IMG/VR virus record: IMGVR_UViG_3300046000_008568
Span: 30,501-94,500 of that record
Source of the DNA: a virus
Lineage: Duplodnaviria > Heunggongvirae > Uroviricota > Caudoviricetes
DNA: 64,000 bases
Strand: one strand, 5' to 3'
The notes beneath the pieces were generated by a model that did not search any database, was not told the DNA's origin, and saw nothing but the letters and a program-made list of their open reading frames with translations. Shown here piece after piece: positions 1-42,887 of this stretch; position 1 is the first letter of the stretch, and the number at the start of each line of letters is the position of its first letter. A program made the translations under genes and the position numbers.

Positions 1-3000
1 GGTTCTTTATTTGGTATTGATTGTACTTCAATCCTACCAGCGCCACCGGCAAATTGTGTTTCGTGTAATACAATTGCAATGCCTCCAACTGGAACAGGTA
101 CTATAACTAATGGAAATTTAACAGTTAGTACAACATATAGTGGCCCGGAATTAGTTCTTGGTCCGGCTAATGGTTCTCCTTTTGCTACTTGTACAAATGT
201 ATCTCTTCCATTACCCTTTGTAATTTTAGGAGCAACTCCTGGGGCTTTTATTTATACCTTAAACTTTAACCAACCTGTTAATAATATAAAATTTTTAATA
301 TCGGGAGCCGGAACAACTTACAATCCAACAGCACTTGAAACTTTTACATTTAATACAAGCGGAGGAACCCCTACACTCTCTACTTGTGGACCATCATGTG
401 GTACTACAATAAACAATAATGTCATAACATTAGAATATGTTTCACCTAACGGGGGTGGTGCTTTAACTCAAGTAAATGCAACTAATCCTTATACTCAAAT
501 AATAATAACAGGAAACGGTGGAGCAGATGGCTCCGGGTTTAGTTTATGTTTAGACACAGCAACACCATTACCATCACCATCTCCTTCTGCAACACCATCA
601 ATAACAGTATCACCAAGTAAAACACCATCAGTAACTGCTACACCTAGTATCTCTATTAGTGCTACACCAAGCGTAACACCATCGATAACTGTTACTCCTA
701 GTATAACAATTAGTCCGTCTCGTACGCCAAGTGTAACGCCGTCACCTTCTTTACCGTCGGATGTATGTCCTTTAATTTATACTACTGCTCTTCAATCATA
801 TAATGGAACTAGTTTAACTAATGGTTATTATACTAAAAATTATACTTGGAACCCTAATACTAATGTTCAACAAGAAATAATATTATCTAATGATGTTGTA
901 GGTAATGACATTGCCTCTACTGAAACTAAATTATGGAAAAGCTGGGGAGTATTTAATCCTATTGCTCAAACCTATAGCTATAATATCAATGAATGGAACC
1001 TTTCTGGAAACCCTCCATACACAGCAACTTTTAATAGAACACTTCTATACCCTTCAGGATACACTGCTAGTCCAGGACTAACAGCAAAAGATAATAATAC
1101 ACTTGTAGATGTTGCTTCTACTATTGTAAATGGGCAAACAGTATGGAAAGTTTATGAATTAAATATTCCTACCGCTCCGGCAACACAATTAACAACAACG
1201 TTTAAATTTAACTTAAATAGCAATTTTCAAGGTCAAGGAGATCTAATGTTAACCTCAGATGCAAATGGTAATCCTGATAAACTTTTATTAGCATGTGCTG
1301 TATCTAACCCAACCCCAGGTACTACAAATAGCATAATTGCTCTTCAACAATACGATTATAATACTGGAGCTTTTGAATATGAAATTACATTAATACCCCC
1401 AACAACCTCACCAACAGCCGGTCTTATAGCTGGTATTGCTCAATTTAATAATATAATATATGTTTTCTTTAAGGATGGTTATCCTAATTTACCTGCTTTA
1501 ACTGGGTGGGTTTATTCAATAAATCCAAATCCACCATATAACTGGACTTTAGTAAATAATATATTAGATTCGGGTGGATCAAATTCATTATTATCATGTT
1601 CTAAAGGTAAATTATTAGGGCCTAATGCTAGTGGGTGTGATACTATGTTGTATAGAACTCAAACCAAGGGATATGGTTCATATAACTTTACAACTAATAC
1701 ATCCGCAGTACTTAGTGTAACAGCAAACCCATACCCTGCTAATGATAATACAAATAATCTCCCTACAGTTATTGCTAATACAAGCAATAAAATGTGGGTA
1801 TATGCTACTGGAGCTGCTACTTCTGAAGTTAATTTAAGAGAAAGTAATATAGTATTATCTCCATTTTCTTCTACCTTTAATAGAAATATAGCTTTACCAA
1901 CTGGTCTTAAACCAAATAATGGATTATTTGCTCTAAATAATTCTACTTTAGTAGGTTCATACAAAATAACTAGTCCGGACAGTAGTGGAAATTTATATTC
2001 TCAACCTATAGTTGAAATAAATATACCGGCTGATGGCACCTCAAATCCTATAGCTACTTTTGTTACTAAATGTTTTTTACCAATACAAACAGAACCTGTT
2101 GGTGGGTTGGTAGTAACTAATGGTGTTAATCCAAAACTTATCATTTTAGTTAGAGATACAAATACTCCTACTATCATTATCCTCCTTCAGTACAATTATA
2201 CTACGGGGGATTTAGAGTTATATAAATCATTATCACCAACTATTACAACTCCTAGTGGATTAGTTGAATTAAATGGAAATATATACATTATCGGGTACAA
2301 CATGTATAAAATAGATACTGCTACACCGTATGCTCTAACGTTAGTCCAAAACCCAGGACTAGCCTTAATTAATGCTTCTCAACTATCCAATTGTATTAAT
2401 ACTAACTTTATAATACCTAATAATTGCGATACTTGTACCCCAGCGTTACTCCCTAAATTTAGTCCTGTTACGTATGGTGGAGTTACATTAACCCCATCAT
2501 TTACTGGGATTACTCCTAATTCAATGCCATATAGTGATATAGGATGTTCCGGGACTAACACAGTACTTAATGCTTCAAATACAGTCTGGTTAGGTTGGTA
2601 TCCTGGTGATTTTACTTATACTCTAACATTTAGCCAACCCGTTAATGACATAGTATTATTACTAACCGGTATGGGGGATAGTCCTATAGCTACTGGAGGT
2701 CATTATGAATCTTTTGCTTTTAATACTAATGGTGGGATTCCTTCTCTTACAGCATGTAAGGGATGTTTTGATAATATTAATGCAAATACGGTAACTGGAT
2801 CTGTTTTTGGGCTCAATAGTTTAAACCAAAATATTACAGGAGGTGGATTTCTTAAAGTACATGCAAGCAGTTTGTATACTACTTTAACTATTTCGGGTCC
2901 TGGTGGAATACAAGGTACAGTTTTTGGTATATGTGCCGCTTCTGTATTACCAGCACCAGCTGTTAGCCCATCACCAAGTCCAACACCATCTCCATCACCT

Positions 3001-4473
3001 CCATGTACACCATGTGCTTTACCTAATGTAATAATAGGAACACAAACATGGACAGCATGTAATTTAGATGTTACTACTTATAGAAATGGTGATGTCATAC
3101 CACAAGTTACAGATCCAACAGCTTGGAATACTCTAACTACAGGAGCTTGGTGTTACTACGACAACAACCCAACTAATGGTTGTACATATAATAAACTATA
3201 CAACTGGTATGCTGTAAATGATCCTCGTGGATTAGCTCCTGTCGGTTATCATGTACCAACAGAGGCTGAAATTGAAACATTGCGCCAGTATTTGGGGGGT
3301 ACAAATGTAGCCGGAGGTAAATTAAAACGAACAGGAACTACACTTTGGAATAGTCCTAATACAGGAGCAACAAATGAAACAGGTTGGACAGGACTACCAG
3401 GAGGAGGAAGAGAAAATGCCCAATTTGGGGGTATAAAATCATTTGGGCCTTTCTGGACTTCTACAGCTATCTCAACCCCTGGATATACTAATCTAGCAAT
3501 ATATGCTGATTTATATTATAATAATTCATTACTTGACCTTAAAGGATTCTCTAAAACTAGTGGATATTCCGTACGTTTAATTAAAGATATTAGTTCATTA
3601 GGATGTGTTTATTATAGCACAGGTGGTGCTTCTACATACAATTATAATATTACTACTAATACCTCAACACCAATTACGTTACCCGGAGATAATACAAGTA
3701 ATATGGTTGAAGCTCACACAACAACTAAATATTGGAAAGGAAACCAAACTAATTATATTAACGAATGGAATGTATCAAACAATCCAACAACATTAACATT
3801 TAACAGAACCATATCAATTTCTGGATATTCAGGACCCCAGTTTAATTATTTACAAGCAATAGATAATACTAATTTGCTTACTACGCTTGTTAATTATAGT
3901 TCAACATATAATCCTGCGGGACCATTTGTTAATCCTTTAGTTAAATTAAATATAACAAATAATACTGTTACGGCTACTCAAATGACAACTATGTTTAACA
4001 TATATGCTCCTTCGGGATTGGATGCCCTTATGTTAACAGCCACTAATAAAGTAATAACAGTTGGAAGACGAGCAACCTCATCAACCCAATACGTCTACTA
4101 CTTATCCCAATACTCATACCCAGATGGGGCTTTAGAATTAGATATTGATTTATCATCAACAATTCCTGCCGGGAATAGTACGTATTCCTTTAAATTATTC
4201 GAATCAAATGGAAATTTATATGTAGCTGTTAGTTCAACATACCCAAATGAAATTATATACAATATTAACTTAAACAGCCCTTATACATTTACACCGGTTC
4301 GGACTACTACTAACCCCAATCAATGGTTTGCATCATATAATTCATCAATTAATTGCAATACAGTTAACTTAAATGTAAATCCAAACCCATCACCATCGCC
4401 AACACCAACACCATCTCCATCAGCACCATCAACTGCTTTTAGAACAATATACAAATATTTAGATATTCAATAA
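1..4473 (+). CDS. Large modular virion appendage protein (5'-truncated by window edge): repeated beta-rich domains, P/S/T linkers and a FISUMP (Fib_succ_major)-like domain
   Basis: Frame is open from base 1 (GSLFGIDC...) so the ATG at 79 is internal; internal domain repeats; IGTQTWTACNLDV...GAWCYYDN...LYNWYAV...GYHVPT matches the FISUMP pattern. Confidence 0.75.
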   Translation, partial: GSLFGIDCTSILPAPPANCVSCNTIAMPPTGTGTITNGNLTVSTTYSGPELVLGPANGSPFATCTNVSLPLPFVILGATPGAFIYTLNFNQPVNNIKFLISGAGTTYNPTALETFTFNTSGGTPTLSTCGPSCGTTINNNVITLEYVSPNGGGALTQVNATNPYTQIIITGNGGADGSGFSLCLDTATPLPSPSPSATPSITVSPSKTPSVTATPSISISATPSVTPSITVTPSITISPSRTPSVTPSPSLPSDVCPLIYTTALQSYNGTSLTNGYYTKNYTWNPNTNVQQEIILSNDVVGNDIASTETKLWKSWGVFNPIAQTYSYNINEWNLSGNPPYTATFNRTLLYPSGYTASPGLTAKDNNTLVDVASTIVNGQTVWKVYELNIPTAPATQLTTTFKFNLNSNFQGQGDLMLTSDANGNPDKLLLACAVSNPTPGTTNSIIALQQYDYNTGAFEYEITLIPPTTSPTAGLIAGIAQFNNIIYVFFKDGYPNLPALTGWVYSINPNPPYNWTLVNNILDSGGSNSLLSCSKGKLLGPNASGCDTMLYRTQTKGYGSYNFTTNTSAVLSVTANPYPANDNTNNLPTVIANTSNKMWVYATGAATSEVNLRESNIVLSPFSSTFNRNIALPTGLKPNNGLFALNNSTLVGSYKITSPDSSGNLYSQPIVEINIPADGTSNPIATFVTKCFLPIQTEPVGGLVVTNGVNPKLIILVRDTNTPTIIILLQYNYTTGDLELYKSLSPTITTPSGLVELNGNIYIIGYNMYKIDTATPYALTLVQNPGLALINASQLSNCINTNFIIPNNCDTCTPALLPKFSPVTYGGVTLTPSFTGITPNSMPYSDIGCSGTNTVLNASNTVWLGWYPGDFTYTLTFSQPVNDIVLLLTGMGDSPIATGGHYESFAFNTNGGIPSLTACKGCFDNINANTVTGSVFGLNSLNQNITGGGFLKVHASSLYTTLTISGPGGIQGTVFGICAASVLPAPAVSPSPSPTPSPSPPCTPCALPNVIIGTQTWTACNLDVTTYRNGDVIPQVTDPTAWNTLTTGAWCYYDNNPTNGCTYNKLYNWYAVNDPRGLAPVGYHVPTEAEIETLRQYLGGTNVAGGKLKRTGTTLWNSPNTGATNETGWTGLPGGGRENAQFGGIKSFGPFWTSTAISTPGYTNLAIYADLYYNNSLLDLKGFSKTSGYSVRLIKDISSLGCVYYSTGGASTYNYNITTNTSTPITLPGDNTSNMVEAHTTTKYWKGNQTNYINEWNVSNNPTTLTFNRTISISGYSGPQFNYLQAIDNTNLLTTLVNYSSTYNPAGPFVNPLVKLNITNNTVTATQMTTMFNIYAPSGLDALMLTATNKVITVGRRATSSTQYVYYLSQYSYPDGALELDIDLSSTIPAGNSTYSFKLFESNGNLYVAVSSTYPNEIIYNINLNSPYTFTPVRTTTNPNQWFASYNSSINCNTVNLNVNPNPSPSPTPTPSPSAPSTAFRTIYKYLDIQ

Positions 4474-4474
4474 T

Positions 4475-5791
4475 ATGTTAACAGAACCAATTAAACAAAA
4501 AATAGAAGACTTATTTCAATCTACTCCCGATTATGTAGGAGTAGGATGGAGTCATAAAATTAGTAAAGATCAACCTATTGGAGAGCCTACTATAGTATTT
4601 AACGTACCTAAAAAACTACCATTAAGTGAAATACCTGAAGAAGAACATTTACCCTCAACAGTTGAAATTGATGGTGTTGCTTATAAAACAGATGTTATTG
4701 AAATTGGGCACGTTGTACCTTTATCATGTCCTCAAACTACATTAAATACTTGTTATACTTGGACTTGGTTTCAATTTCAATATCCCGCTGGAGGTCCTAT
4801 TTACCCTGCTGGAAATACACCCCCAGGAAATAGAGGTGTTATACGCCCTATGAAAGGTGGTATTTCAATAACATCTTTTAATAATGGAACTAAAGTAGGT
4901 ACTTTAGGATTTTTAGCTGTAGATAATGCAAAGAATGCATTAGTTGGAGTTACAAATAATCATGTTGTTGTAGATACTGCATTTTACACCAATTATAGAA
5001 ATGTAACTAATTCTAACGAATACCAAGATCAATACTACCAACCAGGAGAAGTAGGACCAAATTCAGATTATATGGTTGGTGAAGTAGTAAGATATGTTCC
5101 TATAGTTCCTCAACCTTCTGTAAATCAAGTAGATGGAGCTTTAGTTACAATTGATCCTAGTAAAGTAACAAACGCTGAATCATTTAAACAGTATGGAACA
5201 AGTATTTTAACTCCTATGCCGTTTGCTACAACAACAGAAATAAATGATCTTCCAATTGGAACTACTCTACTAGTTAGTTCTGGTAGATCATCGGGTGTTA
5301 AATCATCTACATCTTGTGGAATAAGACTTAAGGATACTAATGTTAGCGTACCATTATCAGTAGTAGTACCAGCACCACCCGCTGTACCATATGGAGGATA
5401 TAATCTAAATGGAACACCAACAGGAGCTAATTTTACCAACCAAATCCAATTCACCAGAACAGATCTTGAACCAAACGGAGATCCATCATGCCCTTTTCCA
5501 ATATATGGAGGGGACTCAGGATCAGCATTGTGTGCTTATATTGGAGGTGTTTGGAAAATTATAGGATTAGTATTTGCTGGATCTCAAATGTTTGGATTTG
5601 CTAATAGAATAGATAATGTAGCAGCTCAATTAAATATATCTGCTTGGGATGGTACAACTAAAAATTATTTTAATACTGGTTCAAGACAATACATAACTAC
5701 TATTGGAGGTAGCCCTGATAAAACATTACCTTGTGCTAGTAATATTTATTGGCAAGTAGGGACAACAAGTTTAATTAATCCTTGCCCTTAA
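4475..5791 (+). CDS. Trypsin/chymotrypsin-like serine protease with N-terminal pro-domain
   Basis: Catalytic triad motifs in order: GTLG..VTNNHV (His), VDGALV (Asp), GGDSGS (Ser). Confidence 0.8.
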   Translation: MLTEPIKQKIEDLFQSTPDYVGVGWSHKISKDQPIGEPTIVFNVPKKLPLSEIPEEEHLPSTVEIDGVAYKTDVIEIGHVVPLSCPQTTLNTCYTWTWFQFQYPAGGPIYPAGNTPPGNRGVIRPMKGGISITSFNNGTKVGTLGFLAVDNAKNALVGVTNNHVVVDTAFYTNYRNVTNSNEYQDQYYQPGEVGPNSDYMVGEVVRYVPIVPQPSVNQVDGALVTIDPSKVTNAESFKQYGTSILTPMPFATTTEINDLPIGTTLLVSSGRSSGVKSSTSCGIRLKDTNVSVPLSVVVPAPPAVPYGGYNLNGTPTGANFTNQIQFTRTDLEPNGDPSCPFPIYGGDSGSALCAYIGGVWKIIGLVFAGSQMFGFANRIDNVAAQLNISAWDGTTKNYFNTGSRQYITTIGGSPDKTLPCASNIYWQVGTTSLINPCP

Positions 5792-41935: not shown

Positions 41936-42097
41936 ATGAAAAAAGTATTTTTAACATTAGCCTTAGTGGCTTTAGTGGCAGTAAGTTGTAACAAGGTGAC
42001 TCCGTCATCTAAATTAACAACAGTAGATTCAACAAAAGTACAAGTCGATTCAGTAAGTATTGACTCAACTTCAATTGATACTACAGCTGTAAAATAA
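41936..42097 (+). CDS. Small lipoprotein (53 aa) with D-S/T repeats; absent from ORF track
   Basis: MKKVFLTLALVALVAVS-C signal/lipobox; DST, DSV, DST, DTT motifs. Confidence 0.8.
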   Translation: MKKVFLTLALVALVAVSCNKVTPSSKLTTVDSTKVQVDSVSIDSTSIDTTAVK

Positions 42098-42120
42098 AAC
42101 ACACCCCAGTAGATAGGTCC

Positions 42121-42381
42121 GCCAAGAAAGTCTTTAAACAACGTGGGAACTGCGGCTCTCCCAATGTGGCTGGAATGTTTTATAAAATAGTCACCCTACT
42201 CTTATAATAAGGGAATCAGTGTAGATAAACAATGCACGATTATAGGAAAGAGGGTGCTAAAAAATTACCAATGCTCGCTGTTAATTGAGAAGTAGAGTGT
42301 ATTAATTTCCGAACAAGGGTTTATAGTAGGAAGGCGTCACTTATTGCACTCAATCAGAAACCCTGAAAGACCAAGGTTGGT
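42121..42381 (+). ncRNA. Candidate ~260-nt multi-branched structured RNA, family unknown
   Basis: No long + strand ORF; GC above typical spacers; end-to-end pairings GCCAA/TTGGT and GTCTTT/AAAGAC plus four internal arms found by eye. Confidence 0.5.
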
Positions 42382-42388
42382 AAAAAAA

Positions 42389-42476
42389 GAATCGGTTAGT
42401 GTCAACGGGAAAGTTCCTGCTAGGGTTAACATGGACGATAAGTCTGGATGAGGGTTCGAATCCCTCACCGATTCCA
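42389..42476 (+). tRNA. Atypical tRNA-like RNA (no canonical anticodon arm)
   Basis: 8-bp acceptor GAATCGGT/ACCGATTC; perfect T-arm GAGGG-TTCGAAT-CCCTC; U8-A9 connector; non-canonical middle. Confidence 0.65.
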
Positions 42477-42502: not shown

Positions 42503-42859
42503 GGGGGTGCCTGGTTTTGACAGATTACAACTAATTAATACAATCAGCCAGAGAGATAACTGTAAACTAAGGTGAATTTAATTAAATGGCAAAAACACAA
42601 ACGGTGTAGTATCTCAAGGAGACAACGCACAAATCGAAGCTAACATGAACACAGTATTCTCTTTATTGAGAAACGAAGTATTGGCAGCAGCCTAAATTAC
42701 CCAAGATTTCTCTATTAGATTAAATAGAGTGGTGGTTTCGCTAACTTAACAGTTGGCCCCAGTTGAATGATACTCCAACTTTAAAACCGTATCAAATAAG
42801 CTGTATAAATTGTATTGACTAACGCAGTCTGGACGGGAGTTCGAATCTCCCCACCTCCA
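42503..42859 (+). ncRNA. ssrA: tmRNA
   Basis: GGGGGTG/CACCTCC-A acceptor with G3.U70; GGTTTTGACAG 5' motif; T-arm GGGAG-TTCGAAT-CTCCC; tag ORF 42588-42695 ending LAAA*. Confidence 0.93.
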
Positions 42860-42887
42860 CTAATTTTTTAACTCTAAATTAATCGTT

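What the first reader, a model, noticed from the sequence alone, without database searches (positions are those of the whole stretch)
42121..42381. Unannotated ~260-nt multi-branched RNA upstream of the tRNA-like RNA and tmRNA
There is no credible ORF here, yet pairing found by eye is extensive. Closing helices: GCCAA(42121-25)/TTGGT(42377-81) and GTCTTT(42130-35)/AAAGAC(42366-71). Arm 1: AAACA..ACGT-GGGA/TCCC-A-ATGT..TGTTT (~42136-42180). Arm 2: CACCCT/AGGGTG with inner CTTATA/TATAGG and GTGTA/TGCAC (42192-42256). Arm 3: AAATTA/TAATTT with ATGCTC/GAGTGT (~42265-42308). Arm 4: AGGGTTT/AAACCCT (42316-42364). I cannot match it to a known family.
Basis: partly seen in the sequence, partly recalled or inferred. 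Interest (0 to 1): 0.75.

Follow-up and report, generated by a model that had tools for sequence, protein, structure and literature searches.

The report
Three small phage RNAs, not one
The supposed 260-base branched RNA is three separate, conserved, folded small RNAs lined up before a tRNA look-alike and a tmRNA in a large Flavobacterium-type phage. The third belongs to a widespread, uncatalogued pseudoknot RNA family of phage tRNA clusters and may end up as a small RNA circle.

Summary
The stretch is non-coding and holds real, conserved RNA structure, but not the single multi-branched RNA proposed.

Comparison with over 300 phage and metagenome loci shows three modules that occur independently of each other:
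- **A** (42094-42183): pseudoknotted.
- **B** (42190-42258): a hairpin.
- **C** (42265-42383): a stem-closed H-type pseudoknot.

Covariation supports A (98% of cells paired, 30 sequences) and C (94% paired, 70 sequences, 11 pairs changed on both sides).

C is a divergent branch of a much larger family, with at least 113 distinct sites. Members lie between tRNA genes in phage arrays. The family also occurs as circularly permuted genes and, in one case, inside the tmRNA of Cellulophaga phage phi14:2. None of the modules matches Rfam 15, T4 rnaC/rnaD or Y RNAs. C was not found in 151 Flavobacteriaceae genomes.

One metatranscriptome contig is a closed 124-base cycle that is exactly module C. No DNA collection searched holds that end-to-start joint. 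The phage encodes a kinase and an RNA ligase.

Function is unknown. My best guess is stable small RNAs released by tRNA-processing enzymes.

This scan reached the same "separate modules" verdict before on other genomes.

The parts
41936..42097 (+). 53-aa lipoprotein ORF that heads the unit. Its stop codon overlaps the first bases of module A.
   Evidence: ORF list. Homologous ORFs precede the RNA modules in many relatives, including phage immuto, where it is annotated YcfL.
42094..42183 (+). Module A, a ~90-nt pseudoknotted RNA. P1 42094-101/42176-83; P2 42106-10/42169-73; hairpin P3 42142-48/42159-66; pseudoknot CCGC 42119-22 with loop GCGG 42152-55.
   Evidence: 30 distinct sequences: 98.3% of cells paired against <=54% when the partners are slid, and 8 pairs changed on both sides. 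Two subtypes exist; A2 lies inside tRNA arrays of 150-320 kb phages. G-U pairs occur only on the + strand.
42190..42258 (+). Module B, a hairpin with a conserved base (CACCCT 42192-97 / AGGGTG 42251-56; TCTTATAAT 42200-08 / ATTATAGGA 42239-47) and a variable apex. It is an insertion between A and C in this phage.
   Evidence: Most relatives have A directly next to C. Seven distinct B relatives share the base and differ in the apex.
42265..42383 (+). Module C, a 119-nt stem-closed H-type pseudoknot. P1 42265-71/42377-83; invariant J1/2 42272-83; P2 42284-89/42349-54; P2b 42307-10/42329-32; conserved loop 42311-28 holding the P3 5' strand 42316-22; P3 3' strand 42358-64; invariant J3/1 42365-76.
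   Evidence: Alignments A1 (35 sequences) and A3 (70 sequences): 94% paired, 11 pairs changed on both sides, slid controls <=52%. The short-type P2 shows many pair types. Covariance model R1 scores 129 bits here and finds a single copy in the genome.
42261..42384 (+). Extent of the closed 124-nt cycle seen in an RNA-seq contig: module C plus five A residues.
   Evidence: read laying, run X3, record 14: 154 nt, depth 11.2, joint 42384->42261 "goes back 124". The first and last 30 nt are the same stretch. The joint is absent from viral and metagenome DNA collections.
42389..42475 (+). tRNA-like RNA with acceptor and T arms and no normal anticodon arm. It is the usual downstream partner of module C.
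   Evidence: Not called by ARAGORN. Weak Rfam tRNA-Sec match, 20 bits. This tRNA-like family follows C in 54 of 104 loci by a strict pattern, plus about 15 near-variants by eye.
42503..42862 (+). tmRNA
   Evidence: Rfam RF00023, 77.9 bits, E 1.6e-28.

Best explanation
The stretch encodes three separate small structured RNAs (A, B, C) on the + strand. They sit in a tRNA-operon-like array: lipoprotein ORF, A, B, C, tRNA-like RNA, tmRNA.

Shown:
- Each module has its own closing helix.
- Each module is conserved far better than the neighbouring ORF.
- Each module occurs in other phages without the other two.
- Modules A and C have covarying pseudoknotted folds.
- C is a branch of a large phage RNA family that normally lies between tRNA genes, a few bases from each.

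Inferred:
- The modules are cut out of a common transcript by the enzymes that mature tRNAs. RNase P would cut at the 5' end of the tRNA-like RNA. Endonucleases would cut in the A-rich linkers.
- P1 brings the two ends of C together.
- C persists as a compact, nuclease-resistant particle, possibly sealed into a 124-nt circle by an RNA ligase.
- The many invariant unpaired bases in its junctions suggest a specific binding surface for a protein, the ribosome or a small ligand, acting in trans. The same core replaces pseudoknot PK2 in one phage tmRNA, which points to a role as a stable structural or ribosome-associated module.

The actual function is not known.

The confidence given applies to the module and processing picture. 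The trans-acting role alone I would put near 0.3.
For: Modularity:
- A is 92-100% identical in most of the ~20 matching loci (two are 82-84%), while the adjacent ORF is 68-91% identical.
- C occurs without A in many loci, such as immuto. A occurs without C in tRNA arrays. B is an insertion.

Structure:
-.
- P1 of the wider family is 88% paired across 28 distinct strand pairs.
- G-U pairs fit only the + strand.

Family and context:
- The core pattern hits at least 114 viral contigs, giving 113 distinct sites. An ARAGORN tRNA lies within 120 nt downstream at 51 of them.
- Locus L440 shows the layout tRNA, 3 nt, P1 ... P1', 6 nt, tRNA.
- C is followed by a tRNA-like RNA in most loci.
- It is phage-specific in what was searched: 1 chance-level hit in 151 Flavobacteriaceae genomes.

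Discrete or circular species:
- A closed 124-nt cycle contig.
- No such joint in DNA collections.
- Natural circularly permuted genes exist, with the P2 strands swapped and still complementary.
- The phage carries an AAA_33 kinase next to a PF09414 RNA ligase.

tmRNA link:
- R1 core hit of 35 bits, E 4e-8, inside the phi14:2 tmRNA just after the tag stop codon. Its P3 carries a compensatory change.
Against: - No direct evidence of transcript ends or strand. All runs laid were assembled contigs, and RNA libraries can carry DNA.
- The circle rests on one contig from one run. It could also come from ligation of a linear 124-nt RNA during library preparation.
- Folding energy is no better than shuffled sequence.
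- Much of the covariation in A is a single split between two clades.
- A's segment GCCAA...GTCTTT is complementary to C's 3' part in most loci that carry both, so an optional A-C contact is not excluded.
- No partner, ligand or phenotype is known.
Confidence: 0.75

Rival explanations
1. Module C and its family form a new class of self-cleaving ribozyme that helps cut up tRNA-array transcripts.
For: Features typical of small ribozymes:
- compact pseudoknot with many invariant junction bases;
- an optional hairpin inserted at one fixed site;
- natural circular permutations;
- varied gene neighbourhoods in phages;
- position next to tRNAs, like the theta ribozymes (PMC10879173);
- a circular product.
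Against: - No match to any ribozyme family in Rfam 15.
- The helix order P1-P2-P3-P2'-P3'-P1' is not the HDV-like nested double pseudoknot.
- The cycle contains the whole module, with its joint outside P1, so both ends were made outside the fold rather than by one internal cut.
- The core sits inside a tmRNA, where cleavage would split that RNA.
Confidence: 0.12
2. Module C is a cis-acting 5' leader of the tRNA-like RNA. It would guide or protect that RNA's maturation (for example RNase P site choice) and would have no function after release.
For: C lies 3-8 nt upstream of a tRNA-like RNA in most loci. General-family members abut tRNAs.
Against: - Permuted members lie away from tRNAs, upstream of uvsX-like, 2OG-oxygenase and unknown genes.
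- The core also occurs inside a tmRNA.
- Ordinary tRNA leaders need no such structure.
- The cycle contig shows C persisting on its own.
Confidence: 0.15
3. One reading: one ~260-nt multi-branched RNA closed by GCCAA/TTGGT and GTCTTT/AAAGAC.
For: Both helices can form in the window and in most loci that carry A and C together.
Against: - No compensatory change where A varies.
- TTGGTAA has a covarying partner inside C.
- GC of GCCAA is used in A's covarying pseudoknot.
- A and C exist apart in many phages, and 53 to 343 nt apart in others.
- MFE z = +0.48.
Confidence: 0.04
4. Modules A or C are ligand-sensing riboswitch aptamers, for example for a 7-deazaguanine precursor, given the neighbouring QueC gene.
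For: QueC lies just upstream here and in immuto. Permuted members sit in 5' untranslated regions.
Against: - No match to preQ1 or any other riboswitch model.
- The downstream element is usually a tRNA or tRNA-like RNA, not an ORF.
- Genes downstream of permuted members share no function.
- The QueC neighbourhood is not kept in other loci.
Confidence: 0.05

Closest known systems
Bacteriophage T4 species 1 and species 2 RNAs (rnaC, rnaD)
   Same: Small stable RNAs of unknown function, encoded on the tRNA strand at the edge of a phage tRNA cluster (annotated in NC_000866) and presumably released by tRNA-processing enzymes (my knowledge). Size range is similar, 119-139 nt.
   Different: No sequence or structure similarity: covariance models R1 and R2 do not hit rnaC or rnaD. 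The RNAs here are pseudoknotted, occur in hundreds of uncultured aquatic phages, have permuted forms and may be circular.
tmRNA pseudoknot PK2 (in the tmRNA of Cellulophaga phage phi14:2)
   Same: The C core (conserved loop, P3, CAG, GAAAGACC) lies right after the tag stop codon of the ARAGORN-called 470-nt tmRNA.
   Different: - P1 and J1/2 of C are missing there.
- Host Flavobacterium and Aureisphaera tmRNAs, and the window's own tmRNA, show no such similarity.
- Module C is free-standing.
Theta (minimal HDV-like) ribozymes next to phage tRNAs (PMC10879173)
   Same: Small pseudoknotted RNAs directly adjoining tRNA genes in phage genomes.
   Different: By my recollection, theta ribozymes lie 3' of tRNAs and have the HDV nested double-pseudoknot fold. 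C lies 5' of its tRNA-like partner, has a different helix order and gives no Rfam ribozyme hit.
GOLLD and ROOL large RNAs of phages and prophages
   Same: Uncharacterised structured RNAs often found near phage tRNA genes.
   Different: Those RNAs are 500-800 nt (my knowledge). The modules here are 70-160 nt, and no Rfam match was found.

Membership tests
Any Rfam 15 family | Covariance-model match at or near the gathering score | tested here: not met
   The only hits at E<=10 are chance-level: Ysr209, algC, microRNA precursors (mir-266, mir-968), CRISPR-DR30. Only tRNA and tmRNA pass gathering scores.
Bacterial RNase P RNA | P4 helix formed by conserved regions CR-I and CR-V, and a match to RF00010/RF00011 | tested here: not met
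   Short words (GAAAGUC, CAGAAACCC) recall CR-I and CR-V. However, AAACCCT pairs with AGGGTTT inside C, the two words belong to different independent modules, and no RNase P model hits at E<=10.
T4 rnaC/rnaD-type small stable RNAs | Encoded in, and co-oriented with, a phage tRNA cluster | tested here: met
   A2 and the general C family lie between tRNAs on the same strand. In the window the modules adjoin a tRNA-like RNA and a tmRNA.
T4 rnaC/rnaD-type small stable RNAs | Homology to rnaC or rnaD | tested here: not met
   R1 and R2, run with filters off on T4 66-76 kb, give no hit at rnaC or rnaD.
HDV-like / theta ribozymes | Nested double pseudoknot with helix order P1-P2-P3-P3'-P1'-P4-P2' | tested here: not met
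   The covarying helix order in C is P1-P2-P3-P2'-P3'-P1'.
Self-cleaving ribozymes in general | Site-specific self-scission | not testable with these tools
   Needs an in vitro transcription and cleavage assay.
Y RNA / YrlA | Ro60-binding stem, and a Ro60 (TROVE) gene in the genome | tested here: not met
   No TROVE gene in the 165.9-kb phage genome. No Y_RNA or YrlA model hit. The GGUCCG word of subtype A1 is absent from subtype A2.
Riboswitch | Consistent position upstream of functionally related genes | tested here: not met
   Downstream elements are tRNAs or tRNA-like RNAs, or unrelated genes.
Covalently closed circular RNA | End-to-start junction present in RNA and absent from DNA | tested here: inconclusive
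   One closed-cycle RNA-seq contig, and no such junction in 2.9 M viral contigs or 241 M metagenome records. Only one run shows it, and there are no raw reads and no RNase R test.

The most novel reading that the evidence does not exclude
Module C RNA is a natural covalently closed ~124-nt circular RNA made by a DNA phage. tRNA-processing nucleases excise it from a tRNA-operon-like transcript, P1 aligns its ends, and an RNA ligase (the phage's own kinase-ligase pair or a host enzyme) seals them. It would represent a large, undescribed phage RNA family whose fold is indifferent to where the chain ends lie, as its natural circular permutations and its use as a tmRNA pseudoknot suggest.
Probability: 0.3. 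Interest if true: 0.85.

Novelty: new variant of a known kind. Interest (0 to 1): 0.66.

Why it matters
Phage tRNA clusters have been known to hold small stable RNAs of unknown purpose since T4's species 1 and 2 RNAs.

This locus shows that aquatic Bacteroidota phages carry several such RNA families that no database lists. One of them has hundreds of members, strict conservation of unpaired bases, permuted gene forms, a copy built into a tmRNA, and a hint of circularisation.

A cultured phage, Flavobacterium phage immuto, carries module C with its tRNA-like partner, so the question can be tested at the bench.

If the RNA is circular or catalytic, it would add a new kind of RNA biology to DNA phages. 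If it is a decoy or a ribosome-binding module, it bears on how phages manipulate host translation or RNA-targeting defences.

Tried and rejected
- **RNase P-like reading:** rejected; see the membership test.
- **Y RNA:** rejected.
- **Host-encoded copies:**
  - The 15-mer scan of bacterial genomes gave 120 loci.
  - R1 on 151 Flavobacteriaceae genomes gave one 26-bit hit, which lies in coding sequence without the motifs.
- **Cultured phages:** blastn finds only a 26-nt piece of C in immuto and finds nothing for A or B.
- **Thermodynamics:** MFE z-scores are uninformative.
- **Extra tertiary pairs:** a mutual-information scan of alignment A3 showed only subtype signal.
- **Sigma-70 promoter scan:** uninformative for a Bacteroidota host.
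- **Published catalogue:** the 2023 catalogue of 10,006 viral structured-RNA candidates (PMC10690425) could not be checked, because no supplementary files are held. The modules might be listed there anonymously.
- **phi14:2 abundant intergenic RNAs** (bioRxiv 10.1101/2020.03.07.982082): I could not map that paper's gene numbers onto the GenBank record, so I cannot say whether one of them is the tmRNA that carries the C-like core.
- **Read laying:** parts of the stretch without contig cover, and depth differences between genes, were not used as evidence.
- **MAFFT register:** the alignment mis-registers P2 of the short subtype by 3 columns, so that helix was counted separately.

Full report
**Setting.** The window is bases 30501-94500 of a 165,861-bp IMG/VR virus record. 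It is syntenic with the 160-kb Flavobacterium phage immuto. In both, a QueC gene and a small lipoprotein ORF precede the region and an endolysin follows it. A tmRNA lies at 42503-42862 (Rfam, 77.9 bits). A tRNA-like RNA that ARAGORN does not call lies at 42389-42475. The phage's 18-tRNA array is about 38 kb away, on the same strand.

**Check of the observation.**
- No ORF of note covers 42098-42388.
- Rfam 15 gives nothing for the stretch at E<=10.
- The minimum free energy of 42100-42390 is no better than shuffled sequence on either strand: z = +0.48 and +0.47.

**Comparison shows three modules.** Exact-word scans of IMG/VR with conserved words from the 3' and 5' halves brought in more than 100 loci. 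A JGI metagenome scan added 109 more.
- The first ~92 bases (module A) are 92-100% identical in most of the ~20 matching loci (two are 82-84%), while the preceding ORF is 68-91% identical.
- In most of these loci A directly abuts the 3' element (module C). The window has a 70-nt hairpin (module B) inserted between them.
- C occurs without A in many loci, including immuto.
- A occurs without C. Its second subtype, A2, sits inside tRNA arrays of 150-320 kb phages, on the tRNA strand.
- B has its own relatives, with a conserved base and a variable apex.
- A, B and C are each single-copy in this genome.

**Module C (42265-42383).** The fold is:
- P1 (TTACCAA/TTGGTAA);
- an invariant 12-nt junction;
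- a variable-length P2, with an inner P2b;
- a conserved 18-nt loop whose AGGGTTT pairs with AAACCCT downstream of P2 (P3, an H-type pseudoknot);
- an optional hairpin at one fixed site;
- an invariant GAAAGACCAAGG;
- P1'.

On 35 and then 70 distinct sequences, 94-95% of cells are paired, against 81-82% in column shuffles and <=52% when the partners are slid. Eleven pairs show changes on both sides. P2 of the short subtype, counted separately, shows GC, CG, AU, UA and GU at the same positions. G-U pairs fit only the + strand.

**Module A (42094-42183).**
- The outer P1 and P2 change together between subtypes A1 and A2.
- The hairpin CGTGGGA/TCCC-A-ATG is invariant.
- The pseudoknot CCGC/GCGG has one compensatory variant, CTGC/GCAG.
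- 98.3% of cells are paired, against <=54% when slid.
- Much of this signal is one clade split, so the number of independent events is small.

- Arms 1, 2 and 4 are real parts of A, B and C.
- The closing helices link A to C. They are possible wherever both modules are present, but variation in A is never compensated in C.
- TTGGT has a covarying partner within C, and GC of GCCAA belongs to A's pseudoknot.
- Arm 3 pairs an invariant junction with a subtype-specific segment.
- The single 260-nt RNA is therefore not supported. I cannot exclude an occasional A-C contact, and the complementarity itself remains unexplained.

**A much larger family.**
- In most new loci the core is the same, but P1 is a purine-rich/pyrimidine-rich helix (for example AAGAGAGG/CCTCTCTT). 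It is 88% paired over 28 distinct strand pairs.
- In those loci the junctions read YAGTGAAGCTGTA and GAAAGACCCGAAR.
- These members lie between tRNA genes with linkers of a few bases. L440 is a clear case. An ARAGORN tRNA lies within 120 nt downstream at 51 of 113 distinct sites.
- Eleven loci carry a circularly permuted gene. The core comes first, P1 is capped by a loop, and the junction and the P2 5' strand come last. The swapped P2 strands are still complementary in each lineage.
- The permuted copies lie upstream of unrelated genes: uvsX-like, a 2OG oxygenase and unknowns.
- None of these members matches Rfam.
- R1 found nothing credible in 151 Flavobacteriaceae genomes.

**Link to tmRNA.** R1 hits the crAss-like Cellulophaga phage phi14:2 at 4225-4297 (35 bits, E 4e-8). 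This is the core only, inside the 470-nt tmRNA that ARAGORN calls at 4031-4500. It lies directly after the tag stop codon, where PK2 sits in tmRNAs. Its P3 reads AAGGTTA/TAACCTT, a compensatory change. Host tmRNAs and the window's own tmRNA lack the core.

**Expression and a possible circle.** Parts of the stretch occur in contigs of metatranscriptome runs from several studies. Contigs cannot show strand, ends or level, and RNA libraries may contain DNA.

One contig is informative. In run X3, record 14 (154 nt, depth 11.2) runs 42365 down to 42261 and then 42384 down to 42336. It joins 42384 to 42261, and its first and last 30 nt are the same stretch. That is what a closed 124-nt cycle looks like in a k=31 assembly graph (my inference from assembler behaviour). 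The cycle is exactly module C plus five A residues. The contig does not break at the joint, as a tandem repeat embedded in a genome would be expected to make it do.

A pattern for the end-to-start joint found nothing in 2.9 M viral contigs or 241 M metagenome records. The variant matches L022-type relatives. There, three A residues separate P1' from the tRNA-like 5' end, which is compatible with an RNase P-made 3' end.

The phage encodes an AAA_33 kinase next to an OB-fold/PF09414 RNA ligase. It has no RtcB.

This is one contig from one run. Ligation of a linear 124-nt RNA during library preparation would look the same. Either way, the contig indicates a discrete species with the boundaries of module C.

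**Mechanism, as far as it goes.**
- Shown: modularity, folds, family, genomic context.
- Inferred: co-transcription, release by tRNA-processing enzymes, stability and perhaps circularisation, and action in trans through the conserved junction surface.

**Comparison with known families.** The modules are closest in kind to T4 rnaC and rnaD, but are not homologous to them. They are not Y RNAs, not RNase P RNA and not HDV-like. They might be among the anonymous candidates of PMC10690425, which I could not check.

**Earlier notes of this scan.** Follow-up reports on other genomes (e1-5398383, e1-5420871) reached the same "separate modules" verdict and named T4 rnaC/rnaD and the phi14:2 RNAs as closest. 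I re-derived the modularity independently. New here are the superfamily, the permuted forms, the tmRNA-embedded core and the cycle contig.

Noticed in passing
L355 (KC821624, phi14:2) 4031-4500: A 470-nt tmRNA (ARAGORN tag GSSVQKLAMVA*) is not annotated in the GenBank record. The record instead lists tiny opposite-strand ORFs gp013 and gp014 there. Its PK2 position holds the module C core.
   Followed up: partly
L004 (NC_055915, immuto) 2397-2613: The annotated 33-aa hypothetical protein gp031 (- strand) lies over module C and is probably spurious. The annotated "tRNA-Cys" is the non-canonical tRNA-like RNA, which ARAGORN does not call.
   Followed up: partly
L003 (NC_041872, FpV4) 1103-3433: A 2.3-kb stretch without annotated genes around an unannotated tmRNA (Rfam, 58 bits, at 2510-2924). 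It may hold further small RNAs. No module C or A words were seen by eye.
   Followed up: no
24 loci, e.g. L007 1300-1317, L068 4457-4474; absent from the window: One mini-hairpin (stem CCG/CGG around the loop TAACTGATAACT, on a CAAGCC/GGCT stem) appears both as the optional insert of module C and as the apex of module B. It behaves like a portable sub-module, perhaps a protein-binding site.
   Followed up: partly
G000:C1:120326-121858 (outside the window; L242 616-2148): Adjacent genes for an AAA_33 kinase-like protein (127 aa) and an RNA ligase with a PHA02142 OB-fold plus PF09414 domain (381 aa). This looks like an RNA repair or sealing pair.
   Followed up: partly
window 42121-42135 versus 42366-42381: A1-type module A keeps GCCAA...GTCTTT, which is complementary to the invariant 3' part of module C. 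It keeps this even in phages where A occurs without C. I could not tell whether this is chance or an optional inter-module contact.
   Followed up: partly
L021, L010, L070 and RNA contigs of run X5 (loose ends at 42189 and 42388): Further recurring modules follow A or C in relatives, for example one starting AAACTACTTGAGTAAG and one starting GGCTAAACATTGA. These are probably more members of the same small-RNA arrays.
   Followed up: no
L430 8085-9311, L389, L433: Circularly permuted members of the C family sit about 100 nt upstream of uvsX-like recombinase genes in T4-like uncultured phages.
   Followed up: partly
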